Shown here: one piece after another, positions 31,160-60,639 of the stretch
How the letters are laid out: each line of letters starts with the position of its first letter
Numbering within the stretch: the first letter of the stretch is position 1
Program-made: the position numbers and the translations under genes
DNA from: Candidatus Woesebacteria bacterium
GTDB lineage: Bacteria; Patescibacteriota; Microgenomatia; UBA8517
Assembly (NCBI GenBank): GCA_013374835.1
Contig: CP055307.1
Span: 10,447 to 74,446, forward strand
Reading direction: 5' to 3'
Length of the DNA stretch: 64,000 bases
Notes under the pieces: generated by a model
What the model saw: the letters and a program-made list of their open reading frames with translations, nothing else
What the model was told of the DNA's origin: nothing
Databases searched by the model: none

Positions 31160-31603
31160 TTATGGCGCCACTTCTTTCCATCTAATTTTCTTTTTGTTTA
31201 AAGTTCTGGGGTAATTCCAGAGTATTTCAGGGGAGTATGTGAAGGATTCTGCAGGGGTATTTACATTTCCCTCTCTAAGATCCCTTTTAAGTGAAACACT
31301 CTGGGCATATACAGATCCGCGTATTTTTAGGGGTGAATCAGGATTTGGGTAGGAGGAGGCTGTTTCAAACTCACCCTGGGTGTAGAAAACCCCCTCAAGA
31401 GCATATTCATTTGCTGGGCTTGTTACTGATGGGATTACTGTGGTATTTCCACCTACTATTGCCATGAAGAAGTCTTGGGAAGGATTTGCCAGAGTTATCC
31501 TTCCTGCTATTGTTAGATTCCCCTCTACCATAAGGACTACCTTTCTTCCACCTGATATTGTTATGTTTCCGTTTATTGTTAAGTTTCCATTTCTTTGTAC
31601 CAT
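31160..31603 (-). CDS. hypothetical protein with short beta-helix-like 'NGN.TI.G' repeats
   Basis: ORF with an AAGGA RBS-like sequence upstream. It overlaps the 3' end of the upstream surface-protein gene in another frame. Confidence 0.4.
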   Translation of the reverse strand: MVQRNGNLTINGNITISGGRKVVLMVEGNLTIAGRITLANPSQDFFMAIVGGNTTVIPSVTSPANEYALEGVFYTQGEFETASSYPNPDSPLKIRGSVYAQSVSLKRDLREGNVNTPAESFTYSPEILWNYPRTLNKKKIRWKEVAP

Positions 31604-33507
31604 TCGTATCCTTCAGCGTCTGATCTTGCTCCAGAGAGGTTTGAGATGGCTGAACTGCTTATGGAGGTTACTAAAATGCGGGTTGGAATCAATGTTTGGA
31701 AAAGACGGTAGGAATAGTCTGTTTTTATATTTGAAATTGAATTTGCAAGCCAGAGGGTTTCTGAGACAATCCCCCTTGAATCTGCCTGTGCTGAGAAGTC
31801 TGCTCTTCTTCCTCCATAGATACCAACACCTGGTGTACCCCCAGAACCAGTTAGAATGAACACTGGGTTGCAAGCTGGGGGTGTACATGTTGGCGGTATG
31901 GGTGAGTCAAGATCCCCTGTGCCTGATATTACATCTCCTTCTTTTGCTTGTATCCATGGGTCTGGGGCTTGTATGTTTAGGGTTGATGTATCCTGACAGC
32001 GGACTACTCCATACATAACCCCCTCCCCTATTATTCTTGTGTTTCCTATTGAAAGGGCTGTTATGTCTGATCTAAAAGGCTGGGATGTATCAGGGGATGT
32101 AGCACTAGCTAAGGATGGGTTTTCAATTCTAAATCTTACTTCTGAGACAGTGCCGTTTGTTCCGTTTGCTATGGCTGCTATTTCCCTTTGTTCACCTATA
32201 ACCATATTTAAAGGATCTGGAAGAAGGTTAAGAGTACAGCTTGGGGCTGAAACAGTAAAGGATGCTGTATCTGAGCAGGTTGGACTGCCATTAACATATA
32301 CTGTTCCTGTTATTGTTACAGTTCCTGGGGAAATGGCGGTAATTCTGGTATTAAAAGGAAAGGAAAAATCAGGTGAAACCACATTTGCTATTGAGCTGTT
32401 GCTGGAGGAAAAAGAAACAAAAGAAACTGATCCGTTTCTAACGCTTATTGAAGCATTTAAAGTAGCACTCTGACCGATATTTGTTGTCATAGATCTTGGA
32501 TTAAGGGAGATGCTGCAGCTTGGAGGAGGTGGTGGTGTGGGACGAGGTGTGGGAACAGGTGGCACAGGTGTTGAGCCAGGGCGGGGTGTGGGTGTTGATG
32601 GTGCTGGTGTTGAGCCAGGGCGAGGAGTTGGGGTTCTGGGGGGAGTTGTTGGAGCAAATGTTGGTGTTACAGATGAATCTGTTATTGTAATTAATGCACT
32701 TGAATGGCAGCGCTCTACTCCATTTACCAAGCCTCTTGCATATATTCTTGTTTGTCCTGCTGATACTGGTCTGAAATACATATAATAGTAAGGCCCACTT
32801 GTTGAAGGATTTATTATTGGTCCACCCCAGGGAGCATTTCTAATCCTTACTACATTTGTATCATTAACTGTCCAGAGAACTTTAAAATCTGCTTCTGGAG
32901 GATTAAATTGAAGGTAGCAGTTATTAACCTTTATTCTACTGCAATCAGGGAGAATCCCTCTTCTGAAGTATGCTGTTGAGATGTCAAATGTTCCACTGTC
33001 AACTCTTCCCAAAAGACACCACTGGGGGGCTGAACCACCTCCACTGGGTGCACACCTTGCTGGATCCCATACACAATTTCCTTCCCAAAGGACACATTCT
33101 GAAGTGGGATGACCACAGCTACTACAAGAGCCACAGCCACCACTTCCACCTGGAGCAGTGGTTGGAGTGGGGGTTGACCCACCTCCTCCACCACCAGTTG
33201 TGTAGCAACCGTCAGTCGATCGAACTGTTGAATCACTAATCACACATCCAGAAGGACCAGCAGAACAATAATAATCAACTCTCCTTATTAATCCCCTACA
33301 GTCATAGCCATCAAAAGCACAGCTAACAGATGCTATTCTTGGTCTACCGACACACTGGTATGAACCGGGATCGCCTTCACAACTATATGCAGTATATGTT
33401 GTTGATGCTGTTCCACTGCATGTTTGTGCATTAACTGATTTATTTGTTAGAAAAAAAAGAAAAAATACGCCAAAGATTAAAAGAGCTGTTTTTAAGTGCT
33501 TAGTCAT
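31579..33507 (-). CDS. large secreted surface protein: Cys-rich N-domain, poly-Gly, Pro/Thr-rich repeats, Ig-like (Big) domains
   Basis: Signal peptide and an N-terminal domain with 18 Cys. The 'GGGGGGSTPTPTTAPGGSGGCGSCS' segment is shared with the small Cys-rich protein at 39079..39468. PTPRPGSTP repeats are present. Confidence 0.6.
   Translation of the reverse strand: MTKHLKTALLIFGVFFLFFLTNKSVNAQTCSGTASTTYTAYSCEGDPGSYQCVGRPRIASVSCAFDGYDCRGLIRRVDYYCSAGPSGCVISDSTVRSTDGCYTTGGGGGGSTPTPTTAPGGSGGCGSCSSCGHPTSECVLWEGNCVWDPARCAPSGGGSAPQWCLLGRVDSGTFDISTAYFRRGILPDCSRIKVNNCYLQFNPPEADFKVLWTVNDTNVVRIRNAPWGGPIINPSTSGPYYYMYFRPVSAGQTRIYARGLVNGVERCHSSALITITDSSVTPTFAPTTPPRTPTPRPGSTPAPSTPTPRPGSTPVPPVPTPRPTPPPPPSCSISLNPRSMTTNIGQSATLNASISVRNGSVSFVSFSSSNSSIANVVSPDFSFPFNTRITAISPGTVTITGTVYVNGSPTCSDTASFTVSAPSCTLNLLPDPLNMVIGEQREIAAIANGTNGTVSEVRFRIENPSLASATSPDTSQPFRSDITALSIGNTRIIGEGVMYGVVRCQDTSTLNIQAPDPWIQAKEGDVISGTGDLDSPIPPTCTPPACNPVFILTGSGGTPGVGIYGGRRADFSAQADSRGIVSETLWLANSISNIKTDYSYRLFQTLIPTRILVTSISSSAISNLSGARSDAEGYEWYKEMET
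32567..32644. repeat. two tandem 39-nt coding repeats (ggtgttgagccagggcg.gg.gt.gg…) encoding the TPRPGSTP(A/V)P linker
   Basis: 'ggtgttgagccaggg' occurs at 32567 and 32606, and the flanking bases match. Confidence 0.6.
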
Positions 33508-33973
33508 ATTTATGGATTACAATATTTATTCTGCCATAGCCTTCTTTTCCCACCTTTGGATCAATATTTATGTTTTCGTCAAAAAACAGAACTGTTACCG
33601 GTGTATTTCTCTGAAAGCTTTGGTAAAGCTCCGAAGACTCAAATATTCTCCACAAAAATTCGCTTTGTCTTTCGTCGGTATTTAAAGTAATCATTGTGGA
33701 ACTTGGATCAAAAAAAATTTTTGTTCTTGAATCTTCAGCACTTGCCAGAGTTAATTCTGCTTGATCCTTATTCAAACTAAAACCACTAACTACCCCGGTA
33801 AATACGCTTTTACCCAAAGTATTATTAAAAACCAACCCATAAATCATCTTTTCTCCTTTGTAATAAACGCTTGGAAAACCAAGCTTCCTGTTCTGATACT
33901 CAAGTAACACAAACAAAAAAACAAAAACCATAATAAAAAGAAGAGCCACAACAGCAAAAAGTATCTTTTTCAT
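33500..33973 (-). CDS. hypothetical small membrane-anchored protein
   Basis: N-terminal TM helix (ILFAVVALLFIMVFVFLFVLL). Lies downstream of paralog P1. Confidence 0.45.
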   Translation of the reverse strand: MKKILFAVVALLFIMVFVFLFVLLEYQNRKLGFPSVYYKGEKMIYGLVFNNTLGKSVFTGVVSGFSLNKDQAELTLASAEDSRTKIFFDPSSTMITLNTDERQSEFLWRIFESSELYQSFQRNTPVTVLFFDENINIDPKVGKEGYGRINIVIHKYD

Positions 33974-34042: not shown

Positions 34043-35944
34043 TTATCTTCTTATATTCAGTGAATGGCTTATGCCAATATAGTAGATGTTATCTTTATTA
34101 AGAGACGCATCCCCTAAACCAATTGCTAAGCTTCTAAACTGATTATTGTACTCTTTTACTGAATAAGCTATTTGATCTGTTAACTTAACTAAACTTACAC
34201 GATTATTAACAATATCAACAAGCTGACCCAAATATTCCTCCCACGAATCCAAATAAAACGATATCCACGGCGATATTTTGGTACCAGGAATTAATTTCGG
34301 CAACACATACGTTTGAGTGTCTCGATCAACATCCACCCTGCCTCCCGAGATAATTTTCTCTTTTGGTATCGACACTGCAATTAAATAATCTTTACCGCTA
34401 TCCTTGTGGCGCGCAAGCATTAGGATGTCAATAACTTCAAGCTCACCTCCAAAATTAGCTTCTTCTATGATTTGATTTGTTTCAGGATCCCTAAGAAAAA
34501 GTCCTGTTATTACCCTCTCCCCCAAAAAACCAACAAAGGCACCATCGGGTGAAATTGAAATGTCTTTATAATACGAGTAGTTTTCAGACTTAAAAAGACT
34601 AACACCATCATGATAACCATCTGATTTAATCTGATAACTCTTTCCATCTACCACTATACTTCCTGAAATCACATTACGATCAACTCCAGAATAATACACC
34701 TTTGTATCTGGAGTTACAGCATATTCCCCCTGCCAAGGTCTTCCAAGATATTCTCCGTTGGTTCCAAATATTTCATTTGAATAGCCTAAAAATATTTCCT
34801 CCGACTCCCTAAAATAGTTAAAGCTATTAATATTTGGACCTACTGCTACTTTTCTTAAGGGGATATTTCCCTGAAACAGAGAGTAAGCAACCCAGGCGTA
34901 TTCTACCTGATCTTCTGGTGTGGGAGTTTCTACAAGGATCCATGTATAGCCTTCATTTGACACCTCTATCATTTCATCTTCGTTTATAATTGCCCCTAAA
35001 AGGTCTAAATTATCAGGTATTCCCTCAGGGTTGGGGATCACAACTTTATCGTTTATCTGCCCCAAGATTTGAGAGGTGGTATTTGGCTCTTTTCTTAAAT
35101 TTACATTTGCTCCTTGTGAGAAGGTTCTGAGTGTAAGAAAGTATGCAGCTTCCTTAGTAATTATTTGTGATATGTTTCCATCTTTGTCTACCTCCACAGG
35201 GATGAGTGATCCATTGGCTGGGAATTCAAAGGATCTGTTTTCATTTATGTATCCACATCTTGTCAGAGCTTTTAGTAGATCCTCCTTGAGTGTATCGTCT
35301 AATTTTGCAATGACTATTTTTGATCCTTCCTCCGCTGGATTAATCCAATGAAGGTCTCCTTCACTTCCATAAAATATTACTCCACCACTTTTATATTCTA
35401 CTTCATTCCAAGTAAAATCATTTTGTGCTTCAAGTACAACTGAAACTTTTTTGATTTCAGAATCTTTGTTTGTTTGGGTAAGAAGCTTTATGGACAGTTC
35501 TCCACCCCAGTTTTTTGCTTCTTCCTGCAAAAAAAGAACTCTTTCAAAACTTTGGGAAAGATCTGGATTGGTGATATTTTGAAGTTTTTCCATCTTTTCC
35601 GGATCAAGAGATACTGCCATCAGGGTGTCTGGAGCTTTCCTTGTTACTATCTCTGAGACAAGTCTTGATTCTTCATCCTCAAGGCTGATTGATGGTATTT
35701 CAGGAAGAAATTCTTTTTGAATTTGATTTTCTTTTGTTTCAAAGTCTGGAATAACTACATCACCCATTTGAGAAGCTCTAAACTCATCTACTGAACCTAT
35801 GTTTTGTGTGTGGGAATTTAATGAATTTGGATATGACTTTTGGGGATTTTTTTGATATTTTTCAGAAATAGGTCCAAGTGTTGAAGAAGAAAAAAATACA
35901 CCTGTAAAAAGAGCATCCACAGTCCCTTTAAACCTATCTTTCAT
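34043..35944 (-). CDS. paralog 1 of a three-member family of ~640-aa secreted SH3b-domain proteins
   Basis: Shares 'EAQNDFTWNEVEYKSGGVIFY' and the SH3b-like 'GANVNLRKEPNTTSQILGQI…GYTWILV' block with 36396..38312 and 39490..41433. Preceded by the conserved leader. Confidence 0.55.
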   Translation of the reverse strand: MKDRFKGTVDALFTGVFFSSSTLGPISEKYQKNPQKSYPNSLNSHTQNIGSVDEFRASQMGDVVIPDFETKENQIQKEFLPEIPSISLEDEESRLVSEIVTRKAPDTLMAVSLDPEKMEKLQNITNPDLSQSFERVLFLQEEAKNWGGELSIKLLTQTNKDSEIKKVSVVLEAQNDFTWNEVEYKSGGVIFYGSEGDLHWINPAEEGSKIVIAKLDDTLKEDLLKALTRCGYINENRSFEFPANGSLIPVEVDKDGNISQIITKEAAYFLTLRTFSQGANVNLRKEPNTTSQILGQINDKVVIPNPEGIPDNLDLLGAIINEDEMIEVSNEGYTWILVETPTPEDQVEYAWVAYSLFQGNIPLRKVAVGPNINSFNYFRESEEIFLGYSNEIFGTNGEYLGRPWQGEYAVTPDTKVYYSGVDRNVISGSIVVDGKSYQIKSDGYHDGVSLFKSENYSYYKDISISPDGAFVGFLGERVITGLFLRDPETNQIIEEANFGGELEVIDILMLARHKDSGKDYLIAVSIPKEKIISGGRVDVDRDTQTYVLPKLIPGTKISPWISFYLDSWEEYLGQLVDIVNNRVSLVKLTDQIAYSVKEYNNQFRSLAIGLGDASLNKDNIYYIGISHSLNIRR

Positions 35945-36049
35945 ATTATCCTATAATACCATAAATGGGTAGGATTTCCAGTATGAACATTCTTAACCGA
36001 AGCTCTACTTGGCCTTAATTCAAAACCCACTTTAATTATTATACTACAG
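35945..36049 (-). promoter_or_regulatory. conserved promoter / ~85-nt 5'UTR element (copy 1 of 3)
   Basis: About 90% identical to 38313..38418 and 41434..41577. The minus strand reads '(c)TGTAGTATAATAATTAAAGTGGGTTTTGAATTAAGGCCAAGTAGAGCTTCAG…TATAGGATAAnATG', with a -10 TATAAT and an AGGA SD. Confidence 0.5.
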
Positions 36050-36350
36050 TGGCAGGATTGCTTATTCTGCAGGAACCGGTCCAGTAATCACAGCCACTGG
36101 TATTGGGCATAATATTACAATCCGGATATACTCCACAACCTCTGTTTTGAGAGCCTTTGCAGTTATAATATTGGTGCGTAACCTCGTTATAGTCACAATT
36201 CCAATAACATGTAAATCCAGAACCTGTACATGTTTGAGCATTGATATCTTGGGGTATCAAAAAAAATACTAATAAAAAATAAAAAGAAAGAAGTGTGAAT
36301 AATAAAAATGTAATGTTAGTTTTCTTATCAACAAAAAGATAAGATGTCAT
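36039..36350 (-). CDS. small secreted Cys-rich protein (10 Cys), copy 1
   Basis: The signal peptide is followed by 'AQTCTGSGFTCYWNCDY…CKGSQNRGCGVYPDCNIMPNTSGCDYWTGSCRISNP'. The 3' coding DNA is near-identical to 39079..39468, and the 3' end abuts and overlaps leader copy 1. Confidence 0.6.
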   Translation of the reverse strand: MTSYLFVDKKTNITFLLFTLLSFYFLLVFFLIPQDINAQTCTGSGFTCYWNCDYNEVTHQYYNCKGSQNRGCGVYPDCNIMPNTSGCDYWTGSCRISNPATVV

Positions 36351-36395
36351 AATTATAATAATATTAAACTACTGAAGCTAAAAAAAGCAATGCTG

Positions 36396-38312
36396 TTAGC
36401 CAATAAGAACAAGATGTCGTTCACGGATCATTTTTGATTTTGTTCCTGCTGGGGTTACTACCTCTTGTTCATCTCCGATTACATTCTTTACTACGCTTTC
36501 TATCTCATTAACAAACCCTCCGACAACCGGCTTAAGTTTTACAAGTTCACCTCCATAACCTAAGCTATAAGCCATAAAAATGAAGAGTACATCCTCTGAA
36601 AGATAACTTTGAATCAATAAATTGCCATAATCATTCCGATTACTTGGTATTTCATATAATATTCTGCCCAACACATAATTTTGTTTCTTTTCAGGCTTAT
36701 AGCCATTTGCCACAGTATTATAACCCCAAGTAATTGTTTTATAAACATCCGCGGTCATATCCGAAGCTATTTGAATAAATAATCTATTGTTAGGATTTCC
36801 CATCCTAAATCTAGGGTGATCTTTAAAGGTGTCAATTATCCTGTTTATTAACTCCTCATCGTGATTGAATCTAGATCTTGACAAATCCTCCTGCCCCCTT
36901 AGGGTTCTATTTGCAAGATGAGTTGGATTTCCCTCTAGTCTCGCGTTTATTCCAAGCTCTGGAATAATAAGTGTATCAAGCGTTGTAACCCAACCGCTTT
37001 CAACATTTTGCCCCATCCCAGGCCTCCAAACAAATACTTTTCCATCCATGATCTTTACATATCCCCTTAGTTCATGGGAGTATTTTCCCTCTGCTTCATC
37101 TATTACTTCTTGGGGTGTATATTCTGTAACAGTTTCTTTTGTTCTCCTGTATTCTTCTTCTGTTATTCCGTATCTCTCCCATGGAGCTTCACCTGAATCA
37201 AAGTAGTATATTTCTTCTAAGGTTTTGAATCTTTTTTCATCAAGATTGTCAATTTTTATCCCCAAAACTTGAAATTCTCTTTTTAGTGTTATCAGGTTTC
37301 CTGCGGTCCAGCCTATTTTTCCATCTTTTGTCATTACCATTACCCACTCATTTACGCCCACTTTTTTGACTAACATCCTATTTTCTTCATCTTCTACTAC
37401 ACCATCTTCTCTTAAGGCAGGTGGTACTAAAGTGGGATCAACAATTATATTATTGTCTATTGAATTTTCTAATATGTTCTCATTTGTTGTTGTATCTGGG
37501 GTTTTTCTTATCCTTACTCCCTGGGTTCCTTGATACATTTGGCTCACAAAGTAAAAGCTTGCGTCTTTTGTTCTGACTTGTATGAGTTGCCCTTGCAAGT
37601 CTGTCTCTAAAACAACCCAACTACCGAGTTCAGGGAGTTTTAGTGTGTGGTAGCGATTGTATCCGGCAAGATCAAAGCCCTGCTTTATTTTGTCTACCAA
37701 ATCCCGATCTAGCTTTGTTATTGAAATATTTGTTTCTATGCCAAGATGCTTTGAGGGAACTATTGCACGAGCAAGTCCTTCACGGTCTATGAAAATTTCT
37801 GAGTCTTTTTTGATACTTACCGGGTTTCCTTCGCTATCAAGCCATTCAAAATCATTTTCGGCTTTGAGCATTATCCCCACTTGTTGGTTCTTAATATATA
37901 CTGCATCCTGATTTACCTCGGATTCATAGATAATATTTAGGTTTAGATTGCCTCCAAAACTTTCTGCATCCTTAATGGCTTCAAGTGCTGCTTGTGTGTA
38001 AGCCCAGAGCTCACTTCCCTCTTCAAGTTTAATATCTGGTACTAAGATGCCGTCTTCGCTCTCACTAAGATTGACCTTTTGAATAATCAAGCCTTCTTTA
38101 TCCACCCCTGAAGTTTCTAAAATAGACTCTGCCTCGGATTTGCGGAGAGCATGTTTGTCTATTGAGAGCAAGTCGTGAGAGAGCTTTTCTTGCTGATCTA
38201 GAAATTCTGGTCTAAGGAAAACTGAAGCGGTAGCAGCAGCAATAAGTTTTAAAAATTCACGCCTAGTTAGGTTTGCGCCAAACTCCTTCTTGGCCAAATT
38301 GTCAGGAGTCAT
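36396..38312 (-). CDS. paralog 2: Tat-signal (TRREFLKL) secreted SH3b-domain protein
   Basis: Twin-arginine motif 'LTRREFLKLIAAATASVFL'. The block 'PWERYGITEEEYRRTKETVTEYTPQEVIDEAEGKYSHELRGYVKI' is almost identical to the one in paralog 3. Confidence 0.6.
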   Translation of the reverse strand: MTPDNLAKKEFGANLTRREFLKLIAAATASVFLRPEFLDQQEKLSHDLLSIDKHALRKSEAESILETSGVDKEGLIIQKVNLSESEDGILVPDIKLEEGSELWAYTQAALEAIKDAESFGGNLNLNIIYESEVNQDAVYIKNQQVGIMLKAENDFEWLDSEGNPVSIKKDSEIFIDREGLARAIVPSKHLGIETNISITKLDRDLVDKIKQGFDLAGYNRYHTLKLPELGSWVVLETDLQGQLIQVRTKDASFYFVSQMYQGTQGVRIRKTPDTTTNENILENSIDNNIIVDPTLVPPALREDGVVEDEENRMLVKKVGVNEWVMVMTKDGKIGWTAGNLITLKREFQVLGIKIDNLDEKRFKTLEEIYYFDSGEAPWERYGITEEEYRRTKETVTEYTPQEVIDEAEGKYSHELRGYVKIMDGKVFVWRPGMGQNVESGWVTTLDTLIIPELGINARLEGNPTHLANRTLRGQEDLSRSRFNHDEELINRIIDTFKDHPRFRMGNPNNRLFIQIASDMTADVYKTITWGYNTVANGYKPEKKQNYVLGRILYEIPSNRNDYGNLLIQSYLSEDVLFIFMAYSLGYGGELVKLKPVVGGFVNEIESVVKNVIGDEQEVVTPAGTKSKMIRERHLVLIG

Positions 38313-38418
38313 GTTATCCTATAATATCATAAAATGAATAAATTTTCCAGTTTGAAGATTCTTAACTGAAGCTCTACTTGGCCTTAATTCAAAACCCACT
38401 TTAATTATTATACTACAA
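38313..38418 (-). promoter_or_regulatory. conserved promoter / 5'UTR element (copy 2 of 3)
   Basis: See copy 1; it lies immediately upstream of the paralog-2 ATG. Confidence 0.5.
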
Positions 38419-38458
38419 GGTGGGGACAGCCCGTGGTGAGATGAATTATAAAAAGAAA

Positions 38459-38941
38459 TCAAGAGGAAACTGGCAGTTCAAACCAAAAACTGCTCCCCTT
38501 ACCCGGTTCGGATTCAACACCAATATTCCCTTTAAATTTCTCAATCAAAAGCTTTGAGATATAAAGCCCCAATCCACTGCCTATTGTCTTGCCGACTTTT
38601 GATTTAACTCTATAAAACTTGCTAAAAAGCTTTTTTTGCTCCTCCTTTGATATACCCATTCCAGTATCAATAACTTCAAGCCTTACTATTTTCGAACCTT
38701 TATTGAATAACTTTATGGTGATTCCACCCTCCTCTGTATATTTAGTAGCGTTGCTTAAGAAATTAATAACCACCTCATGGAGTCTATCACGATCAACACG
38801 TACACGGTCCCGCAAATCGCTTTGGACTTCTAATCTAAACTCAAGATTCTTTCTCTCCGCTTTTTCATTTCTAAGTTGACCTAAAATAGACTCTTTCTCC
38901 TCTAAAAACATCTCTTTGAACGATTCCTTTATTCCCCACAT
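38459..38941 (-). pseudogene. sensor histidine kinase fragment: HATPase_c domain only, lacking the H-box and sensor
   Basis: N, G1 and G2 boxes are visible ('FLSNATKYT', 'VIDTGMGI', 'GSGLGLYISK'). The upstream in-frame sequence '…KYITRLVENLESRFDQISFNDTAT' has no HisKA phospho-acceptor His and hits a stop. Confidence 0.55.
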
Positions 38942-39078
38942 AGTGGCGGTGTCATTAAAACTTATCTGATCAAACCTTGATTCAAGATTTTCAACTAATC
39001 TTGTGATGTATTTTTATAATCGGTTCTGTTTTTATATACAAAAATCAAAGGGCCAATGTTTCCGTTTTCTATATCTGA

Positions 39079-39468
39079 TCAAAGTCCAAAATATCTTTCT
39101 TTAATATATTTACTGCATGAACCGCAGCCGCCGCTTCCACCCGGAGATGTGGTAGGTGCGGCAGTGGGAGCTGCTGTTGGTGCGGGTGTAGGATTGCTTA
39201 TTCTGCAGGAACCGGTCCAGTAATCACACCCACTTGTATTGGGCATGATTCCACAATCAGGATATATTCCACATCCTCTATTTTGGGAGTTACAGTTTGT
39301 CCAACGACAAGTGTGGTCACAGACTTGTCTGCACCCAAAGTAGCAAATAAACCCCGGTCCTGTGCAAGATTGAGAGTAAACATTTTTAGGTTCAACATAA
39401 AATAACAAAAGCGCACAAGACATAAAAAACAAAGATAGGTATTTTTTCATCAAATCCGTCCTAAGCAC
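39079..39468 (-). CDS. small secreted Cys-rich protein, copy 2, with a PAPTAAPT/GGSGGCGSCS tail
   Basis: 'SQSCTGPGFICYFGCRQVCDHTCRWTNCNSQNRGCGIYPDCGIMPNTSGCDYWTGSCRISNP' is followed by 'TPAPTAAPTAAPTTSPGGSGGCGSCSKY'. Confidence 0.6.
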   Translation of the reverse strand: MLRTDLMKKYLSLFFMSCALLLFYVEPKNVYSQSCTGPGFICYFGCRQVCDHTCRWTNCNSQNRGCGIYPDCGIMPNTSGCDYWTGSCRISNPTPAPTAAPTAAPTTSPGGSGGCGSCSKYIKERYFGL

Positions 39469-39489
39469 AATATATCAAAGAATCAGAAG

Positions 39490-41433
39490 TTAATCTACAA
39501 TAACTAAACTTTTAGGTCGGACAGCATATGCATGCATCATTAAATCAAGATCGCCCAATACATTTGAGATATACCCTTCAATCTTTGAATTAAACCTGTA
39601 TTTTACCGGTTTTCCACCCCAAATAACATTTTTTGGATCGCCCAAATCACCAGTTAAAAATTGGTATGTTGAAATCATGATCATCTCGGAAAACGCAGTT
39701 TCTGCAATACCTTCTTTTTGGTTATCGTATTCTTCTTTTAATCCATAAAAAAGCCTTCCTGTTGCGAATTTATCAGTATAATATGCATCAATCTTAAAAG
39801 CTTCTAGCGCGTCTCCTAGGTTTGGAGTTAGTATAATAGGTTTATATATATCAACATCTTCATCTAATTCTGTTACTATCTGAAAAAATATTTTACTTCC
39901 CTCCCTAAATCTTGTGTTGCGATTAATCTTTCTGCTTTGATTTTCTAACAACTCTTTCTCAAAATTTAACATTTCTTCCTCCAAGAATCTTATATTATTA
40001 AGGTCTGCCAGTCCTTTCTGACTCTTTGAACGCTTACTCAACTCTATATCTCTACCTTCTAAGATTATCTCGAGCCAACCATCTTTTTTGTTATGGAATT
40101 TAAAACTTCCTAACTGCTTATACCATCCGTTCTTGCCTGCTCCTGGTCTCCAAACCATGACATCAGAGGTTTCTTCATCGATTTTTACATATCCCCTTAG
40201 TTCATGGGAGTATCTTCCCTCTGCTTCACTTATCACTTCTTGGGGTGTGTATTCATTTACAGTTGCCTTTGTTTCAAGGTATTCTTCTTCTGTTATCCCA
40301 TATCTTTCCCAGGGCTTATCTTCAAAATCAAAGTAATTTATTTCATCAATGCTTCTGAAAATTGACTCCCTTGGTATTTGAGGCCCGGCTGCTACATTTA
40401 CAGTATCTGGATTTTTTACATCTAAAGCACTCCAGCCATACCGTCCATCGCTGTACCGGACTAAGTACCATTTATATCCATTGGCTTGTGTTACAAAAAC
40501 TTTACTTTCTTTATATGTGTCTACAGAAACATTTCTGGGATCTACGTTTCCAGGTAACTCAGGAGGTAGTCCAGTGGGTGTAACTATTGATGTATTGGCA
40601 TCCAGGGTTTGTGTTATTATGTTTTGATTATTTGAAGTATTTGGTTCACTTCGAACATTAAGCTCAACCGGACCAACAAACACTCTCTTTGTTAAAAATA
40701 CAGCTTCTCCTTCGGTAATTATCTGGACAATATTTCCTTCTCCATCTAATTCCGCCATTATCCAAGAGCCGGCTCCTTCGGTTATTAGTTCTCCATATCC
40801 GAGTTCTTTGTATTTTGCTTTCAACTGGGAGTCTGTCTGTTCATTAAGTTTTATGGTTTTAATTTTTGATCCAGGGAGAAATCCGGATTCTTTGATGAAG
40901 TGTAAACTAAATTCTCCACCATCTTTCTCTCTTATGATAATGGGTTCGCCTGCCTTTACATCTCTTTCTCCCATCTTTAGATCGCTTTTTGCCCTCATTA
41001 TCACAGCTGCTTCTTTTGGAGGGTTTACCCCATCGTAATCAAAGAGTATTTCCAGCCCCATGTCGGCACCTTCTATACGCAGGTCGTTTATCCAACCCAG
41101 TGCATAATCAATCTGTTCTTTTAAGCCTTGGGTTTCAAACTGAATTTCGGGAGTTAAATACCCATTTAGATTTTCCTCGAGTTTAAGTTCTCTGAAAGTA
41201 AGCGCAGGCTCTATTGGCCTGTTATACTCAGGCTCTATCAATCTGGCGGCATCGGTATCTGTAAGATTAAATTTCTCAATCGATGCCTGAACTTGAATCT
41301 CGGATTGCCTTTCCTTTATCTCCAAACCTGGAAGCGCAGTCATAGTAAGTGCTGAAGCCGCACCCCATTCCAAGACTTGGCGCCTTGTTAGCTTTGTATC
41401 AAACACCTTCTCTACCAAATTATCAGGTGTCAT
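39490..41433 (-). CDS. paralog 3: Tat-signal-like secreted SH3b-domain protein
   Basis: 'LTRRQVLEWGAASALTMTALPG', with a shared C-terminal block and SH3b-like 'VELNVRSEPNTSNNQNI…GYKWYLVRYSDGRYGWSA'. By manual counting the start codon lies about 1 nt from the ORF-track coordinate. Confidence 0.6.
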   Translation of the reverse strand: MTPDNLVEKVFDTKLTRRQVLEWGAASALTMTALPGLEIKERQSEIQVQASIEKFNLTDTDAARLIEPEYNRPIEPALTFRELKLEENLNGYLTPEIQFETQGLKEQIDYALGWINDLRIEGADMGLEILFDYDGVNPPKEAAVIMRAKSDLKMGERDVKAGEPIIIREKDGGEFSLHFIKESGFLPGSKIKTIKLNEQTDSQLKAKYKELGYGELITEGAGSWIMAELDGEGNIVQIITEGEAVFLTKRVFVGPVELNVRSEPNTSNNQNIITQTLDANTSIVTPTGLPPELPGNVDPRNVSVDTYKESKVFVTQANGYKWYLVRYSDGRYGWSALDVKNPDTVNVAAGPQIPRESIFRSIDEINYFDFEDKPWERYGITEEEYLETKATVNEYTPQEVISEAEGRYSHELRGYVKIDEETSDVMVWRPGAGKNGWYKQLGSFKFHNKKDGWLEIILEGRDIELSKRSKSQKGLADLNNIRFLEEEMLNFEKELLENQSRKINRNTRFREGSKIFFQIVTELDEDVDIYKPIILTPNLGDALEAFKIDAYYTDKFATGRLFYGLKEEYDNQKEGIAETAFSEMIMISTYQFLTGDLGDPKNVIWGGKPVKYRFNSKIEGYISNVLGDLDLMMHAYAVRPKSLVIVD

Positions 41434-41577
41434 ATTATCCTATAATATCATAAAATGAATAAATTTTACAGTATGAAGTTTTCTTTGAGGTGAGCCTTCC
41501 CTCCCCCGATTAAAACGGGGCTTGACGAAGCATCTATATAATCCAAAACCCACTTTAGTTATTATACTACAAGGTGA
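41434..41577 (-). promoter_or_regulatory. conserved promoter / 5'UTR element (copy 3 of 3; carries a ~45-nt insertion)
   Basis: See copies 1 and 2. The inserted segment reads 'ggtgagccttccctcccccgattaaaacggggcttgacgaagc'. Confidence 0.45.
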
Positions 41578-41584
41578 GAAGGGA

Positions 41585-41956
41585 TTAATTAACTTTTTGT
41601 TTTTTGTAATAATTTATAATTTCCTGAAACAATTCTTTGTAATATCCTGTTTTCTCCTTATAATTAAATATCAATTCTGCTCCAGCATACATAGCTTTCC
41701 CTAAACTTTTATCTTTTTCTTCAATATCCCTAAGCCACCATATTTCTCCATTAAAAGTAAGGTATTCACATATTGCAGAAAATTCTTGAATAGAAATCTT
41801 TTTTTCTAGGAAATCTTCAACTGCCAGTAAAAATACTTTTTTAATGTCTTCCATTTTAAACCTGTTCCAAAAAAATTTGGGTTTTATTCCGAAACTTCTT
41901 TGATATTTATGAATAATATCGCTTACGTCTGGAAGTTTGTTGTTTTTATAATTCAT
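41585..41956 (-). CDS. hypothetical protein
   Basis: ORF with an ATG start. Basic, with no motifs recognised. Confidence 0.4.
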   Translation of the reverse strand: MNYKNNKLPDVSDIIHKYQRSFGIKPKFFWNRFKMEDIKKVFLLAVEDFLEKKISIQEFSAICEYLTFNGEIWWLRDIEEKDKSLGKAMYAGAELIFNYKEKTGYYKELFQEIINYYKKQKVN

Positions 41957-42315: not shown

Positions 42316-42617
42316 CCTCCTTTCTCAGATCTCAACTGGCGCAACTGCCAGCTAGTCTGCCCGGGATTGGGCGGAGGAGATTGGCTTTCTTGGAGTTTTT
42401 TAGCTTTACTTCTTTGGCTTTTTCTACCTTAGTGGCTTTTTTATGTTTGGCCTCTATTCCTCCCGCTTTTGGGAGTCGGCCGGCTATACAAGCATGAAGT
42501 TAGAAAACAGGCCTTTGAAGTTTGAGCCTAAAACCCAAGCTTTTGAAGGTGCAAAAGCGAATTTCGCACGCTTTGGGAGGTAGATTAGCAGAAGAAGAAG
42601 AAGAAGAAGTCAAGGGG
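42316..42617 (-). repeat. R1: ~300-nt conserved structured element / long 5' leader (copy 1), containing a (GAA)6 tract
   Basis: About 88% identical over ~300 nt to 44178..44474. It has the same orientation and an SD+start codon at its 3' (minus-strand) end. Several conserved hairpins (CTGGC-AGTTGC-GCCAG, CTCCC-AAAAGC-GGGAG, AAAGCG-TGCGAAATT-CGCTTT) are present. Confidence 0.7.
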
Positions 42618-42619
42618 TG

Positions 42620-43840
42620 TTACCTGATATTTCTTGATATCAAATTTCCTGCTGCCACAGCATGGGGCAATGAATTAAAAGGCTTTAATACTATCTGATC
42701 ATCTAGTATATATAGCGGGTTTTCTTTCTGCTTTGCTCCTTTAAAACAACGGTTAAAAGTCTCTGCATATAATTTGCTTAAATTTTGGTTTGGGTTTTTA
42801 TAAATCTCAATCTCAAACAAAATCCTTCGAAATACTAACAAAAAATCCACGATCCTTGACTGGTATAGTCTATCGGATAAATTTCTTAACTCTTTGAACT
42901 CAATTTCATATGCCTCAACTTCAGCCTGATATTTTCCTTTTTCAAGAAGATCAATTTCGTTTTCAAAATTTTTTAAATAACTCAAAACATGACCAAGCTC
43001 ATGAATCAAAAATAAAGATTGGTGACGAACATTAAAATTATTGTTTATATATACATCAAAACCATCTTTTTTGCTGTTATAGATGGTATACGTTTTATCT
43101 GACATTAGAACATTTATTTTTGACCTAAATTTATTTAAAAGATTATATTTTTTAAACATATATTTTTTAACTTCATGAGGTGATCTTAGGGGAAAAGCCG
43201 GCAATAAACACACTAAACAGGGTTTATTAAAGATTGAATAAAAATCACGAGAAAAATCTGTTTTTGTAAGAATTTGATTATTTATGAAATCAATTATTTT
43301 ATCTACATTTATGATAAATTTATTGAAATCTGATAAAGGAATTTTGTATTTTTTCTTATAAAAATTTATAAATTCGGACCGATGTAAACTTTCAACTTCT
43401 TTTTTTCTGTTAACTAATAATTTTATAAATTTTTCTTCTATTTCAGTTAACGGCAGATCCAGTTCATCCCAGATTTTTTTCCTATCTTCAATTCTTTTGT
43501 CAAAGACTTCTTTATCAATTCTATTGGCTACTTCAGTAGGCAAAAGAAGAAAATAATCTGACATTGCTTTTTCATATTTACTATTGCCAGGATTAAAAAT
43601 ATCTAATTTCTTTAGTGTTTTTGTCACAAAATCTTTATCTATCGCTTCACGAATTCTGTGCTTTATGTATAAATTAATAGAGCATGTTTTTGGATCCCTT
43701 AAAATTTTGTAGTCTTTTTCAGCTTCAAATCCAGCATTCAAAACTAGATCTTTGATTTTTTTGGGATCAGAAAATTTAGTATGGATTTTATATTGAGGAT
43801 AATATTCTTTAAATATGTCATTTAAGTCTTGATTTCTCAT
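42620..43840 (-). CDS. cytoplasmic HExxH metallopeptidase-like protein
   Basis: 'LFLIHELGHVLSY' is an HExxH motif, and glutamates follow about 25 aa downstream ('EVEAYEIEF'). No signal peptide. The gene is flanked on both sides by the R repeats. Confidence 0.5.
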   Translation of the reverse strand: MRNQDLNDIFKEYYPQYKIHTKFSDPKKIKDLVLNAGFEAEKDYKILRDPKTCSINLYIKHRIREAIDKDFVTKTLKKLDIFNPGNSKYEKAMSDYFLLLPTEVANRIDKEVFDKRIEDRKKIWDELDLPLTEIEEKFIKLLVNRKKEVESLHRSEFINFYKKKYKIPLSDFNKFIINVDKIIDFINNQILTKTDFSRDFYSIFNKPCLVCLLPAFPLRSPHEVKKYMFKKYNLLNKFRSKINVLMSDKTYTIYNSKKDGFDVYINNNFNVRHQSLFLIHELGHVLSYLKNFENEIDLLEKGKYQAEVEAYEIEFKELRNLSDRLYQSRIVDFLLVFRRILFEIEIYKNPNQNLSKLYAETFNRCFKGAKQKENPLYILDDQIVLKPFNSLPHAVAAGNLISRNIR

Positions 43841-43950: not shown

Positions 43951-44172
43951 CTAGGACCGCTCATCGCTTGAGACGTTCTCTGGGCTTTGACCACATCCAC
44001 CCGTTGAGCCCTGACTATTGCCAGAGGTTTCTTCAAAGCCTTTAGATGCAGAAATCGCATCTGCAGGATTCGTCTGAACAATGTGATCTGAGCCATAGTA
44101 GATTGTACGGTCAAGCTGCAATCCCCACTTGTCCGCAAGCTCTTGAGCTTTCGGCGAATACTTGTCGCTCAT
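43951..44172 (-). CDS. small hypothetical protein S2 (73 aa)
   Basis: 'ctgagaaaggaggagaagATGagc' reads SD-5nt-ATG at the 3' edge of repeat R2. Ser/Gly-rich C-terminus. Confidence 0.45.
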   Translation of the reverse strand: MSDKYSPKAQELADKWGLQLDRTIYYGSDHIVQTNPADAISASKGFEETSGNSQGSTGGCGQSPENVSSDERS

Positions 44173-44177
44173 CTTCT

Positions 44178-44474
44178 CCTCCTTTCTCAGAACTTAACTG
44201 GCGCAACTGCCAGCAAGTCTGTCCGAGATTGGGCGGGAGAGAGATCTTTCTTGGAGTTTTTTGGCCTTACTTCTTAGGCTTTTTCTATCTCAGTGGCCTT
44301 TTTTGTGTTTAGCCTGTTTCTCCTCCCGCTTTTGGGAGTTGGCCGATTTAGATAGGCATGAGGTTAGAAAATAGGCCTTTGAAGTTTTGGCCTAAAAAAC
44401 CCAAGCCTGTGAAGGTGCAAAAGCGAATTTCGCACGCTTTGGGAGGTAGATTAGCAGAAGAAGAAGTCAAGGGG
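44178..44474 (-). repeat. R2: ~300-nt conserved structured element / long 5' leader (copy 2), with a (GAA)3 tract
   Basis: See R1. Confidence 0.7.
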
Positions 44475-44477
44475 AGG

Positions 44478-57962: not shown

Positions 57963-58170
57963 ACCCAGACTGTGTTAACCACAATCAGGGTAGCTGGTTT
58001 AAATTTTAAAAAGGTGCGAATTCAGATTGTTATCTGAAATCTAAAGAGAAAGGTACAAAGAAAAGTCTAATGACCGATTCGTGCAAAGTAAGCTTAATTC
58101 CTTACGGAACTTCCACTTCCTGCCGATCAACCTGATGTTCTTTCAGGAGTCTAAGAGCCCTCATCTTGGG

Positions 58171-58209
<39 letters not shown>

Positions 58210-58394: not shown

Positions 58395-58427
<33 letters not shown>

Positions 58428-60588: not shown

Positions 60589-60639
<51 letters not shown>

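What the first reader, a model, noticed from the sequence alone, without database searches (positions are those of the whole stretch)
34043..41584. Triplicated cassette: conserved leader + ~640-aa Tat/SH3b secreted protein, two copies followed by a small 10-Cys secreted protein
Three paralogous large proteins are present (633, 638 and 647 aa). Two have twin-arginine signals (TRREFLKL, TRRQVL). All carry an SH3b-like domain and a near-identical block 'PWERYGITEEEY…TEYTPQEVI.EAEG.YSHELRGYVKI'. They are arranged head-to-tail on the minus strand. Copies 2 and 3 are each followed by a gene for a small secreted protein with ~10 cysteines. Their CxxGxGFxCYxxC…C…NCxSQNRGCGxYPDCxIMPNTSGCDYWTGSCRISNP region is near-identical between the two at the DNA level. 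The Cys-rich motif and the 'PGGSGGCGSCS' tail recur in the N-terminus of the big surface protein at 31579-33507. A histidine-kinase C-terminal fragment (38459-38941) sits at the junction between cassette units, as expected from duplication by unequal recombination. The large-enzyme plus small disulfide-rich partner pairing, repeated and diversifying, resembles an effector/toxin-immunity or enzyme/inhibitor (or adhesin-pair) arrangement. No protein family could be assigned to either partner from sequence alone.
Basis: partly seen in the sequence, partly recalled or inferred. Interest (0 to 1): 0.8.

Follow-up and report, generated by a model that had tools for sequence, protein, structure and literature searches.

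The report
Recombining surface-protein gene array (Woesebacteria)
An uncultured ultra-small bacterium (Candidatus Woesebacteria) carries three tandem, recombination-shuffled copies of a very rare exported-protein gene whose conserved neighbour is a long surface protein with a cysteine-rich head. The two "small cysteine-rich proteins" are cut-off front ends of that surface-protein gene, not antidotes or inhibitors.

Summary
The ORFs, the shared upstream leader, the histidine-kinase fragment and the near-identical blocks are all real. Large1, however, lacks the ITEEEY/SHELR block and has an unrelated C-terminal half.

In related strains the same Cys-rich heads continue in frame into full-length surface proteins: poly-Gly or Pro/Thr linkers, Ig-like Big_2 domains and a DUF7305-like C-terminus. 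Small2 and small3 are therefore truncated 5' ends of surface-protein genes. Small2 runs straight into the next leader repeat. Small3 is cut inside a second Cys module, at a junction with the kinase remnant.

The large proteins form a very rare family: 21 representatives among 1.84 billion proteins. They have a Tat signal, an unassigned N-domain, an SH3b-like domain and interchangeable C-terminal domains. The large2/large3 C-domain is predicted to have a zincin metallopeptidase fold but has no HExxH and no conserved His.

Paralogs are mosaics, and synonymous divergence collapses in the shared blocks, which indicates gene conversion. The gene order large gene, then (small membrane protein), then Cys-rich-headed surface protein recurs in distant relatives.

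Best reading: a lineage-specific, recombining cell-surface (probably attachment) module. It is not a toxin–immunity pair. The biochemical function remains inferred.

The parts
41434..41576 (-). Leader3: long form of the shared upstream region of the large genes (promoter and/or 5' UTR)
   Evidence: Both ends match leader1 and leader2; the middle differs and is longer. The long form also occurs in L001 and L003. No Rfam match.
39490..41433 (-). Large3 (647 aa): Tat-type signal, N-domain, SH3b-like domain, zincin-like C-domain (subtype A3)
   Evidence: The ortholog P0004 is 92% identical at DNA level with conserved synteny. dN/dS is 0.20.
40180..40359 (-). Conserved block inside large3 (PWERYGITEEEY...SHELRGYVK); partner of 37050-37229; recombination or gene-conversion tract
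   Evidence: 81% nt identity over 180 nt, where the flanks have no detectable nt similarity. dS is 0.66 against 2.4 or more in the flanks. The P0006 breakpoint lies here.
39079..39468 (-). Small3: truncated 5' end of a surface-protein gene. It holds a signal peptide, a 10-Cys head, a Pro/Thr linker and the start of a second Cys module, then out-of-context codons KYIKERYFGL and a stop. The likely true start is the ATG at 39450.
   Evidence: In L002 and L004 homologous heads continue into full-length surface proteins. The junction was assembled independently in L092, at 99.96% over 2821 nt.
38459..38941 (-). Histidine-kinase remnant (HATPase_c only), a rearrangement scar between unit 3 and unit 2
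   Evidence: HATPase_c E 4.7e-28 with no HisKA; stop codons lie upstream in frame; no parent gene is in the window.
38313..38422 (-). Leader2: short form of the shared upstream region
   Evidence: 89.9% identical to leader1 over 109 nt. It contains a promoter-like TGGAAA-17-TGaTATTAT just before AGGA-N-ATG.
36396..38312 (-). Large2 (638 aa): TRREFLK Tat signal (about aa 14-33), N-domain (about 44-262), SH3b-like domain (about 263-349), zincin-like C-domain without HExxH (350-638)
37050..37229 (-). Conserved block inside large2 (partner of 40180-40359)
36039..36350 (-). Small2: truncated 5' end of a surface-protein gene (signal peptide plus 8-Cys head). Its last codons (...ISNP-ATVV-stop) run into the leader1 repeat.
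   Evidence: L089 encodes the identical head up to ...WTGSC, continuing in frame into a poly-Gly linker and a full surface protein. The junction is visible in alignment A2.
36054..36153 (-). Conserved 3' half of the head (QNRGCG.YPDC.IMPNTSGCDYWTGSCRISNP); partner of 39190-39289; gene-conversion tract
   Evidence: 89% nt identity. dS is 0.51, against saturated dS in the 5' half.
35945..36053 (-). Leader1: short form of the shared upstream region
34043..35944 (-). Large1 (633 aa): no RR motif; N-domain and SH3b-like domain shared with the family; unrelated C-terminal domain (type B, from about aa 390)
   Evidence: Residues 1-270 are 100% identical to P0002, a fourth paralog elsewhere on the same 901,682-bp contig that carries a large2-like C-domain. 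P0005 is its ortholog.
33500..33973 (-). 157-aa protein with an N-terminal membrane anchor, lying between large1 and the surface-protein gene
   Evidence: Anchored proteins of 192 and 196 aa hold the same position in L006 and L090, and those two are homologous to each other (E 7e-11). They are not detectably homologous to this protein.
31160..33507 (-). Full-length surface-protein gene of unit 1: signal peptide, a different Cys-rich head, the GGSGGCGSCS...CVLWEGNC module, Pro/Thr linkers, Big_2 Ig-like domains and a DUF7305-like C-terminus ending RWKEVAP. In this assembly a 1-nt deletion near 31590 splits it into 31579-33507 and 31160-31603.
   Evidence: Big_2 E 7.6e-9; DUF7305 E 2e-5, below the cutoff. 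An intact 782-aa version, P0029, exists in another assembly.

Best explanation
WHAT IT IS
This is a lineage-specific cell-surface gene module of a Candidatus Woesebacteria (CPR/Patescibacteria) genome. It has been amplified in tandem and is being shuffled by recombination.

THE CANONICAL MODULE
- A shared promoter/leader.
- A gene for an exported multi-domain protein ('large'): a Tat signal, an N-domain of unknown fold, an SH3b-like wall-binding domain and an exchangeable C-terminal domain.
- Optionally, a small membrane-anchored protein.
- A Sec-exported long surface protein: a roughly 60-aa disulfide-rich head carried on poly-Gly or Pro/Thr linkers, Ig-like domains and a beta-helix-like C-terminus.

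THIS GENOME
Unit 1 is complete. Units 2 and 3 keep the leader, the large gene and only the signal peptide plus head of the surface-protein gene. Small2 and small3 are these truncated genes. One rearrangement trapped a histidine-kinase remnant.

SHOWN
- The truncations.
- The mosaic paralogs.
- The gene-conversion tracts.
- The conserved gene order in relatives.
- The predicted zincin-like fold without metal ligands.

INFERRED MECHANISM
- The large protein is exported folded by Tat.
- It sits on peptidoglycan, its own or a host's, through the SH3b-like domain.
- It uses its catalytically dead zincin-like C-domain as a binding module for the cognate Cys-rich head, or for the same external target.
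- Together the two proteins form a variable attachment/recognition apparatus.
- Recombination at the conserved blocks creates new N-domain, C-domain and head combinations.
For: TRUNCATION
- L089 has small2's exact head continuing in frame into a full surface protein.
- L002 and L004 have small3-like heads fused to the Big_2 protein.
- The small3 junction was assembled independently in L092.

CONSERVED GENE ORDER
- L005: large, large, Tat remnant, head-bearing surface protein.
- L094: P0007, then P0009 (Tat signal plus C-domain only), then a head-bearing surface protein ending WKEVVP.
- L006 and L090: large, roughly 190-aa anchored protein, Cys-rich secreted protein.

MOSAICISM
- Large1 and P0002, in the same genome, are 100% identical over aa 1-270 and unrelated after about aa 390.
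- P0006 is large3-like at aa 360-419 and large2-identical from aa 435.
- dS is 0.66 and 0.51 in the shared blocks, against 2.4 or more in the flanks.

PURIFYING SELECTION
- The large genes have dN/dS of 0.20-0.27.

FOLDS
- The full-length model also matches SH3b domains.

EXPORT
- RR motifs occur across the family.
- TatA and TatC have been reported in Microgenomatia (PMC9166423).

PAIRING
- C-domain similarity tracks head similarity across 7 loci (Mantel r 0.75, p 0.004).

CONTEXT
- Sortases, glycosyltransferases and an M23/LysM protein lie in the window, and type IV pilus genes lie next to the L005 copy.
Against: - No direct evidence exists for expression, localisation or any interaction.
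- The Mantel correlation rests on about four independent groups, and plain linkage would also produce it.
- The N-domain has no fold assignment: Foldseek against PDB gave nothing with E below 0.03.
- SH3b hits are below Pfam thresholds.
- The unit-1 surface gene is frameshifted in this assembly. Together with the truncated heads, this could mean the locus is decaying rather than functioning.
- Large1 lacks the RR motif.
- Host attachment is an extrapolation from the general biology of CPR bacteria.
Confidence: 0.55

Rival explanations
1. The head-only ORFs are functional stand-alone secreted proteins. Small2 and small3 would be kept by selection as soluble cognate ligands, decoys or inhibitors of the adjacent large protein's C-domain.
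For: - Both truncated genes keep a ribosome-binding site, a start codon, an intact signal peptide and every head cysteine.
- Each lies 37-43 nt behind its large gene.
- Each zincin-type large gene keeps a head directly downstream in all loci seen.
- Heads as a domain are under purifying selection, with dN/dS of 0.19-0.45.
Against: - Head-only genes were seen only in this genome and its two sister-run assemblies.
- Every more distant locus has the head fused to the long protein.
- Small2 differs from the L089 head by only 5 nt, so selection on the truncated form cannot be measured.
- The truncation points are rearrangement scars: a leader repeat and a kinase remnant.
Confidence: 0.3
2. The locus is a cassette reservoir for surface variation. 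Partial head copies here, and partial 3' copies elsewhere in the genome, would serve as donors for gene conversion into a full-length expression copy, in the manner of pilE/pilS or MgPa/MgPar, to vary the exposed head.
For: - Partial 5' copies (small2, small3) and partial 3' copies (P0030 and P0031, on the same contig) of the surface-protein gene coexist with one full-length copy.
- The conserved blocks have low dS.
- Mosaic variants occur among strains.
- L093 may be a within-population structural variant.
Against: - The head of the full-length unit-1 gene is a different sequence type from the small2 and small3 heads.
- The partial copies are not silent: they have their own signal peptide and start codon and sit in an operon-like position.
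- Related strains have several full-length copies.
- L093 could be a k-mer chimera across a 38-nt exact repeat.
Confidence: 0.15
3. The locus is a polymorphic toxin/effector system with immunity or inhibitor genes. The large protein's variable C-terminus would be a toxin, and the small Cys-rich protein would neutralise it.
For: - The family has a conserved N-terminal part with exchangeable C-terminal domains.
- A conserved block lies at the junction of N- and C-terminal parts.
- The units are arranged as tandem 'orphan-like' copies.
Against: - The downstream gene product is Sec-secreted and is really the N-terminus of a surface protein.
- No Pfam, NCBIfam, PADLOC or PHROG family hit exists for the large or small proteins.
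- The C-domain has a zincin fold but no HExxH and no conserved His or Cys.
- Export is by a Tat signal, not by a toxin-delivery system.
- dN/dS of 0.2-0.27 shows no arms-race signature.
Confidence: 0.06
4. The large proteins are active SH3b-targeted cell-wall hydrolases, either autolysins or host-wall-attacking enzymes, that use a non-canonical active site in the zincin-like domain.
For: - An SH3b domain joined to a peptidase-fold domain is the classic architecture of wall hydrolases.
- A Glu is conserved in the position of the HExxH glutamate, in the S-E motif of helix 563-585.
Against: - Both zinc-binding His residues are replaced, by Ser and by a hydrophobic residue, in every family member, and no alternative metal triad is conserved.
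- One member has Gln instead of the Glu (P0003).
- The C-domain is swapped for unrelated domains in large1 and in distant relatives.
Confidence: 0.1
5. The arrangement is an assembly artefact: strain variants from a metagenome were stitched into a false tandem array.
For: - The source is a metagenome-derived genome.
- Related contigs break inside the surface-protein gene.
- L093 joins small2 to the small3 tail.
- The unit-1 surface gene carries a 1-nt indel relative to another assembly.
Against: - The three large genes are only 21-31% identical, so they cannot be collapsed or duplicated strain variants.
- L092 reproduces 2.8 kb across large3, small3 and the kinase remnant at 99.96%.
- Assemblers do not invent junction k-mers.
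- L005 and L094 also carry tandem large paralogs.
Confidence: 0.05

Closest known systems
SH3b-targeted cell-wall hydrolases (lysostaphin/ALE-1, NlpC/P60 proteins with SH3b, AtlE repeats)
   Different: The large proteins have no M23, NlpC/P60 or amidase domain. Their peptidase-like domain is a zincin fold that lacks all metal ligands. Pfam SH3_3 hits are below threshold.
Catalytically dead zincin-fold proteins that act as binding partners (for example ADAM22, and NTNH of botulinum toxin complexes)
   Different: No sequence relationship exists (5-10% identity). The domain context differs (Tat signal plus SH3b), and the binding role here is only inferred.
Polymorphic toxin systems with orphan cassettes (CdiA-CT/CdiI, Rhs)
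   Same: Both show a conserved N-terminal part, exchangeable C-terminal domains, a conserved junction block, tandem partial copies and recombination between copies.
   Different: Here there is no toxin domain, no cytoplasmic immunity gene and no T5, T6 or T7 delivery context. The downstream partner is a secreted surface protein.
Gene-conversion surface-variation loci (Neisseria pilE/pilS, Mycoplasma genitalium MgPa/MgPar, Borrelia vlsE)
   Same: Full-length and partial copies of a surface-protein gene coexist in one small genome, with conversion tracts bounded by conserved segments.
   Different: The partial copies here are translatable and lie in an operon-like position. The full-length copy has a different head type, and no within-population switching has been demonstrated.
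Ig-domain (Big_2) surface adhesins of monoderm bacteria
   Same: The partner protein has a signal peptide, low-complexity stalk linkers and Big_2 domains.
   Different: It has no LPXTG sorting signal at its C-terminus, which ends RWKEVAP. Its roughly 60-aa, 8-10-Cys head and its DUF7305-like C-terminus match no characterised adhesin.

Membership tests
Polymorphic toxin / toxin-immunity systems | Conserved N-terminal region with exchangeable C-terminal domains | tested here: met
   Distant relatives align only over about the first 350 positions. Large1 and P0002 share residues 1-270 at 100% identity but have unrelated C-termini.
Polymorphic toxin / toxin-immunity systems | C-terminal domain is a recognisable toxin (nuclease, deaminase, peptidase and so on) with catalytic residues | tested here: not met
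   No family hit. The C-domain has a zincin-like fold without HExxH or any conserved His or Cys.
Polymorphic toxin / toxin-immunity systems | Small cytoplasmic immunity gene immediately downstream | tested here: not met
   The downstream ORFs carry signal peptides and are truncated N-termini of surface proteins.
Zincin (HExxH) metallopeptidases | Zincin fold: mixed beta-sheet followed by an active-site helix | tested here: met
Zincin (HExxH) metallopeptidases | HExxH zinc-binding motif plus a third ligand | tested here: not met
   No HExxH occurs in any of the three proteins. The equivalent long helix carries S-E-x-x-[hydrophobic], and no His is conserved in 11 family members.
SH3b-containing peptidoglycan hydrolases | SH3b domain | tested here: inconclusive
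SH3b-containing peptidoglycan hydrolases | Catalytic M23, NlpC/P60, amidase or glucosaminidase domain | tested here: not met
   No such Pfam or NCBIfam hit. The structural hits to these proteins cover only about 65-75 residues, which corresponds to the SH3b part.
Tat-exported proteins | S/T-R-R-x-F-L-K motif followed by a hydrophobic stretch at the N-terminus | tested here: met
   Large2 has TRREFLKLIAAATASVFL and large3 has TRRQVLEWGAASALTM. Relatives have SRRDFLK, TRREFLE and NRRDFLK. TAT_signal E reaches 5.5e-5 in family members. The motif is not met in large1.
Tat-exported proteins | TatA and TatC encoded in the genome | not tested
   Only 64 kb of a 901,682-bp genome is visible, and none of the ORFs scanned there is a Tat component. 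TatA and TatC have been reported for the class Microgenomatia (PMC9166423).
Stand-alone small disulfide-rich secreted proteins (knottin- or defensin-like) | An independent small gene conserved as such | tested here: not met
   In L002, L004, L005, L089 and L094 the head is the N-terminal module of a protein of about 780 aa or more, up to roughly 1,080 aa where the gene is complete. Head-only ORFs occur only in this genome's assemblies.
Stand-alone small disulfide-rich secreted proteins (knottin- or defensin-like) | Cystine-knot or defensin fold | not tested
The alignment is too shallow (5 sequences).
Gene-conversion antigenic-variation loci | Segmental sequence exchange between paralogous copies | tested here: met
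   dS is 0.51-0.66 in the shared tracts against 2.4 or more in the flanks. Mosaic proteins are seen.
Gene-conversion antigenic-variation loci | One expression site plus silent, promoterless partial donor cassettes, with switching within a population | tested here: inconclusive
   Partial 5' and 3' copies exist, but the 5' copies are translatable and lie behind promoter-bearing leaders. L093 may be a real variant or a chimera.
Histidine kinases (ORF 38459-38941) | HisKA dimerisation domain with a phospho-accepting His, plus a HATPase_c domain | tested here: not met
   Only HATPase_c is present (E 4.7e-28). Stop codons lie upstream and there is no H-box. It is a gene remnant.

The most novel reading that the evidence does not exclude
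The array could be a head-switching system of a CPR episymbiont. Each exposed disulfide-rich head would work only with a cognate, Tat-exported pseudo-zincin partner. The genome would keep extra leader, partner and head cassettes, plus 3' fragments elsewhere, that recombine at four conserved junction blocks: the leader, the YGITEEEY block, the head 3' half and the GGSGGCGSCS module. Such recombination would change attachment specificity as matched pairs. This would be programmed variation of a two-component adhesin in an ultra-small bacterium.
Probability: 0.12. Interest if true: 0.75.

Novelty: new variant of a known kind. Interest (0 to 1): 0.45.

Why it matters
CPR/Patescibacteria are thought to live attached to other microbes, yet almost none of their attachment or recognition proteins are known. 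This locus offers a concrete, testable candidate:
- two uncharacterised protein families that always travel together;
- one member with a wall-binding domain and a dead-protease fold;
- the other with an exposed cysteine-rich head;
- both being reshuffled by recombination in a 0.9-Mb genome that can afford few paralogs.

It is also a cautionary case. The "small secreted partner proteins" of the finding are gene fragments.

Tried and rejected
FAMILY AND SEQUENCE SEARCHES THAT FOUND NOTHING
- Pfam, NCBIfam, PHROGs and PADLOC scans of the large and small proteins gave no family. The only hits were sub-threshold TAT_signal, SH3_3 and GW, plus generic hits for the kinase fragment (HATPase_c in Pfam and one PADLOC model that also matches that domain).
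- A profile search against PDB sequences gave nothing below E 0.7. Phmmer of the large1 C-terminus against PDB gave nothing.
- Foldseek of the full model against PDB gave nothing with E below 0.03. The afdb50 library was not available.
- A genome-contig scan with the family alignment confirmed no relative in 185,579 species representatives.
- A word-indexed profile search added only fragments. A search with the head gave one weak Chloroflexi hit, to the second Cys module only.

LEADER AS A STRUCTURED RNA: NOT SUPPORTED
- There is no Rfam hit, even at E up to 1.
- Folding z-scores are only -1.1 to -2.0.
- The apparent hairpin change in L003 is not compensatory (read).
- In the more distant L005, only TGATATTATAGGAT next to the start codon is conserved, which fits a promoter or ribosome-binding site.

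IDEAS ABOUT 'SHELR' REJECTED
- As a degenerate HExxH: rejected. In the model it lies in a coil/strand, not a helix, and it is not conserved in P0009 or the L005 848-aa protein.
- As a histidine-kinase H-box: chance resemblance.

SELECTION
- A dN/dS test on the truncated small ORFs was uninformative, with only 5 nt differences.

ERROR TO DISREGARD
It is discarded and not used. The analysis was redone from real ids.

LITERATURE
- DUF7305 and CPR surface-protein or gene-conversion searches found nothing relevant.

Full report
**Organism and source**

The window comes from a single 901,682-bp NCBI contig. It belongs to a Candidatus Woesebacteria (Microgenomates, CPR/Patescibacteria) genome. Its Rho protein is 98% identical to that of Woesebacteria bacterium UBA1430, and the next best matches are other Woesebacteria at 70-81%. 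The 23S rRNA gene carries about 1 kb of insertions, including a LAGLIDADG endonuclease ORF. To my knowledge this is typical of CPR bacteria.

**Checking the observation**

All the ORFs exist as described. Read 5'->3' on the minus strand, the layout is:

| Coordinates | Feature |
|---|---|
| 41585-41956 | 123-aa ORF |
| 41434-41576 | leader3 |
| 39490-41433 | large3 |
| 39079-39468 | small3 |
| 38459-38941 | kinase fragment |
| 38313-38422 | leader2 |
| 36396-38312 | large2 |
| 36039-36350 | small2 |
| 35945-36053 | leader1 |
| 34043-35944 | large1 |
| 33500-33973 | 157-aa membrane-anchored protein |
| 31160-33507 | surface-protein gene |

- The three large proteins are paralogs at 21-31% identity.
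- At DNA level, similarity between units is confined to four short tracts:
  - the leader (89.9% over 109 nt between leader1 and leader2);
  - the leader 3' end plus the first ~60 coding nt (83-85%);
  - a 180-nt block inside large2 and large3 (81%);
  - the 3' half of the Cys-rich head (89% over 100 nt).
- The kinase ORF is a HATPase_c-only remnant (E 4.7e-28). It has no H-box and has stop codons upstream.
  - Large1 lacks the ITEEEY/SHELR block and has an unrelated C-terminal half.
  - The 642-aa protein shares only the signal-peptide junction and the GGSGGCGSCS module with the small ORFs, not the head motif.
  - SH3b support from sequence is sub-threshold.
  - Small2 has 8 head cysteines, not 10.

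**What the small Cys-rich ORFs are**

Related sequences settle this point.

- In a strain about 92% identical at DNA level (JGI contigs L001/L002), the ortholog of large3 is followed by the same kind of head. There the ORF continues through poly-Gly linkers, further Cys modules, a Pro/Thr stalk and Big_2 domains for more than 516 aa.
- L003/L004 show the same for another unit. There the head is followed by '...TSPGGSGGCGSCSTCGHATSECVLWEGNC...', which is the part that the window's 642-aa protein retains.
- L089 is the clearest case. It encodes small2's head with an identical amino-acid sequence up to ...DYWTGSC, continuing in frame into the full-length protein.
- In the window, small2 instead ends ...ISNP-ATVV-stop, and those last codons are the start of the leader1 repeat (CCACTGTAGTATAA-TAATT).
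- Small3 is cut after GGSGGCGSCS, inside the second Cys module. It reads on into 10 unrelated codons and a stop, followed by the kinase remnant.
- The small3 junction is reproduced at 99.96% over 2,821 nt by an independent assembly of SRR6825875 (L092).
- The head is a real, conserved domain of about 60 aa with 8 invariant cysteines. It is extremely rare: three loci in the metagenome collection and no useful protein hits.
- The unit-1 surface gene is itself split in this assembly by a 1-nt deletion. An intact 782-aa version, P0029, exists in another assembly.

**What the large proteins are**

- The family is very rare. It has four clusters among 5.8 billion proteins and 21 representatives among 1.84 billion with a profile search. 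None were found in 185,579 species-representative genomes. No Pfam or NCBIfam family covers it.
- Distant members share only the N-terminal ~350 positions: an RR signal, an N-domain and an SH3b-like region. Their C-termini differ.
- An AlphaFold2 model of large2 built from 23 sequences has pLDDT 76.3 and pTM 0.63.
  - zincin-fold metallopeptidases.
- None of the three proteins has HExxH.
  - The long helix that corresponds to the active-site helix carries a conserved S-E followed by hydrophobic residues.
  - No His or Cys is conserved among 11 members.
  - The invariant residues are Y.D, P, YGITEEEY, WRPG, several Gly and Arg, and IQI.
- I therefore call the C-domain a zincin-like fold without a metal site, most likely a binding module. 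This is a fold-level inference from predicted structures with modest Z.
- The N-domain remains unassigned.

**Mosaicism and gene conversion**

- Large1 and P0002, a fourth paralog elsewhere on the same contig, are 100% identical over residues 1-270. They then decay and are unrelated after about residue 390. From about residue 377, P0002 matches large2: 90-100% through the conserved block to about residue 466, and about 45% beyond.
- P0006 (L089) is large3-like through the ITEEEY block and large2-identical from residue 435.
- Synonymous divergence between large2 and large3 is 0.66 in the block. It is 2.4 or more, that is saturated, on both sides.
- Between small2 and small3, dS is 0.51 in the head 3' half and saturated in the 5' half.
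- The near-identical blocks therefore reflect recent sequence exchange on top of protein constraint. YGITEEEY is also conserved in distant relatives.
- Orthologous comparisons give dN/dS of 0.20-0.27 for the large genes, against 0.10-0.14 for neighbouring genes. This is purifying selection, somewhat relaxed, with no gene-wide positive selection.
- L093, an assembly of the sister run SRR6825879, joins small2's head to small3's tail and the kinase remnant exactly at the end of the repeat. It is either a real structural variant or a chimera across a 38-nt exact repeat. I cannot tell which.

**Conserved gene order**

| Locus | Gene order |
|---|---|
| L005 | large (P0008), a second large paralog (848 aa), a degraded Tat-signal remnant, then a head-bearing surface protein ending ...AWKEVVP; type IV pilus genes upstream |
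| L094 | large (P0007), P0009 (a Tat signal fused directly to the zincin-like C-domain), then a head-bearing surface protein of about 1,080 aa |
| L006 and L090 | large proteins sharing only the N-terminal part, then a ~190-aa N-anchored protein, then a signal-peptide Cys-rich protein with TSP1-like repeats and Ig domains |
| Window, unit 1 | large1, 157-aa anchored protein, Cys-rich-headed Big_2 protein |

- The L006/L090 order is the same as that of the window's unit 1.
- The type of C-domain goes with the type of downstream Cys-rich protein.
- Among the seven zincin-type loci, C-domain similarity correlates with head similarity (Mantel r 0.75, p 0.004).
- This correlation rests on about four independent groups, and plain linkage would also produce it.

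**The leader**

- It is a shared ~110-145-nt upstream region with two promoter-like elements:
  - a TATAAT at its 5' end;
  - TGGAAA-17-TGaTATTAT just before AGGA-N-ATG.
- It has no Rfam match and only weak predicted structure.
- In the more distant L005, only the TGATATTATAGGAT segment next to the start codon persists.
- I read the leader as a common promoter/5' region that also serves as a recombination substrate, not as a riboswitch.

**Interpretation**

The best-supported picture is a lineage-specific cell-surface module that has been tandemly amplified and is being recombined. Two of the three surface-protein genes are truncated to their heads.

The proposed mechanism is inferred, not shown:
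- Tat exports the large protein in a folded state.
- The protein anchors to the cell wall through its SH3b-like domain.
- Its dead zincin-like domain binds the cognate head or a shared external target.
- Recombination creates new combinations of domains and heads.

Tat machinery has been reported for Microgenomatia (PMC9166423).

**Rivals**

- Toxin-immunity is disfavoured. The downstream product is secreted and is part of a surface protein. No toxin or defence family is hit. Catalytic residues are absent.
- An active wall hydrolase is unlikely for the same reason.
- An assembly artefact cannot explain three genes at 21-31% identity, nor L092.
- Two readings remain open and are the interesting ones:
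  - the head-only ORFs may be functional soluble partners;
  - the partial copies may act as a conversion reservoir.

**Novelty and score**

The protein families are undescribed, and the pairing is new. The phenomenon itself is a known kind: a paralogous surface-protein array with truncated copies and gene conversion. Interest is moderate (0.45).

Noticed in passing
window 42344-42620 and 44172-44480 (minus strand); also L001 8824-9119 and L003 719-914: A second repeated upstream element of about 280-300 nt lies in front of unrelated small ORFs and ends in GAAAGGAGGA-N5-6-ATG. The two window copies are about 77% identical. RNAalifold predicts 38 pairs, 2 of them with compensatory changes (for example ACTCCC...GGGAG versus ACTCTC...GAGAG). 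There is no Rfam match at E up to 1. It may be an undescribed structured 5' leader, but only 4 sequences are available.
   Followed up: partly
window 58058-62053 (minus strand): The 23S rRNA gene spans 3,996 nt against a 2,925-position Rfam model, so it holds about 1 kb of insertions. One insertion contains a LAGLIDADG homing-endonuclease ORF (59143-59658, E 1.9e-19). To my knowledge this is typical of CPR bacteria.
   Followed up: partly
window about 31585-31600: A 1-nt deletion relative to the intact 782-aa version in another assembly (P0029...EWYRRNGNLTING...) splits the surface-protein gene into 642-aa and 147-aa ORFs. It could be a sequencing error or a real pseudogenisation.
   Followed up: yes
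outside the window, same 901,682-bp contig (P0002, P0030, P0031): A fourth large paralog, P0002, combines large1's N-terminus with a large2-like C-domain. Separate 3' fragments of the surface-protein gene also lie on the contig (P0030 314 aa, P0031 251 aa; these two may be alternative start calls of a single fragment). Their DNA could not be retrieved.
   Followed up: partly
L006 about 10953-11782 and L090 about 2900-3700: The Cys-rich proteins downstream of distant large homologs carry tandem repeats of the form CSCxxWSxQSCGGGxC...YQTRSCxPxxC. These resemble thrombospondin type-1 repeats; the resemblance is from memory and was not tested.
   Followed up: no
window 42620-43840 (minus strand) versus L001 6197-8350: The position that holds a 406-aa protein with an HELGH motif in the window holds a 717-aa Peptidase_C39_2 protein in the 92%-identical strain. 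This is a strain-variable slot immediately upstream of the array.
   Followed up: no
window 41585-41956 (minus strand) versus L003 1283-1693: Different small cytoplasmic-looking proteins (123 aa here, an unrelated 136 aa in L003) lie directly upstream of the leader in different units. No family could be assigned and their role is unknown.
   Followed up: no
window 45081-45812, 54103-54813, 52213-53478, 27598-28704: Cell-envelope genes surround the array: two sortases, a 421-aa protein with a bona fide SH3_3 domain (E 1.9e-9), glycosyltransferases and an M23/LysM peptidase.
   Followed up: no
P0025 (Chloroflexi protein, NCBI): The second Cys module (GxCGSCSTCGxxTSECV...CLWDPAxCA) also occurs in a Chloroflexi hypothetical protein, at 70% identity over a short stretch (E 5.5e-5). 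This module is therefore more widespread than the head.
   Followed up: no
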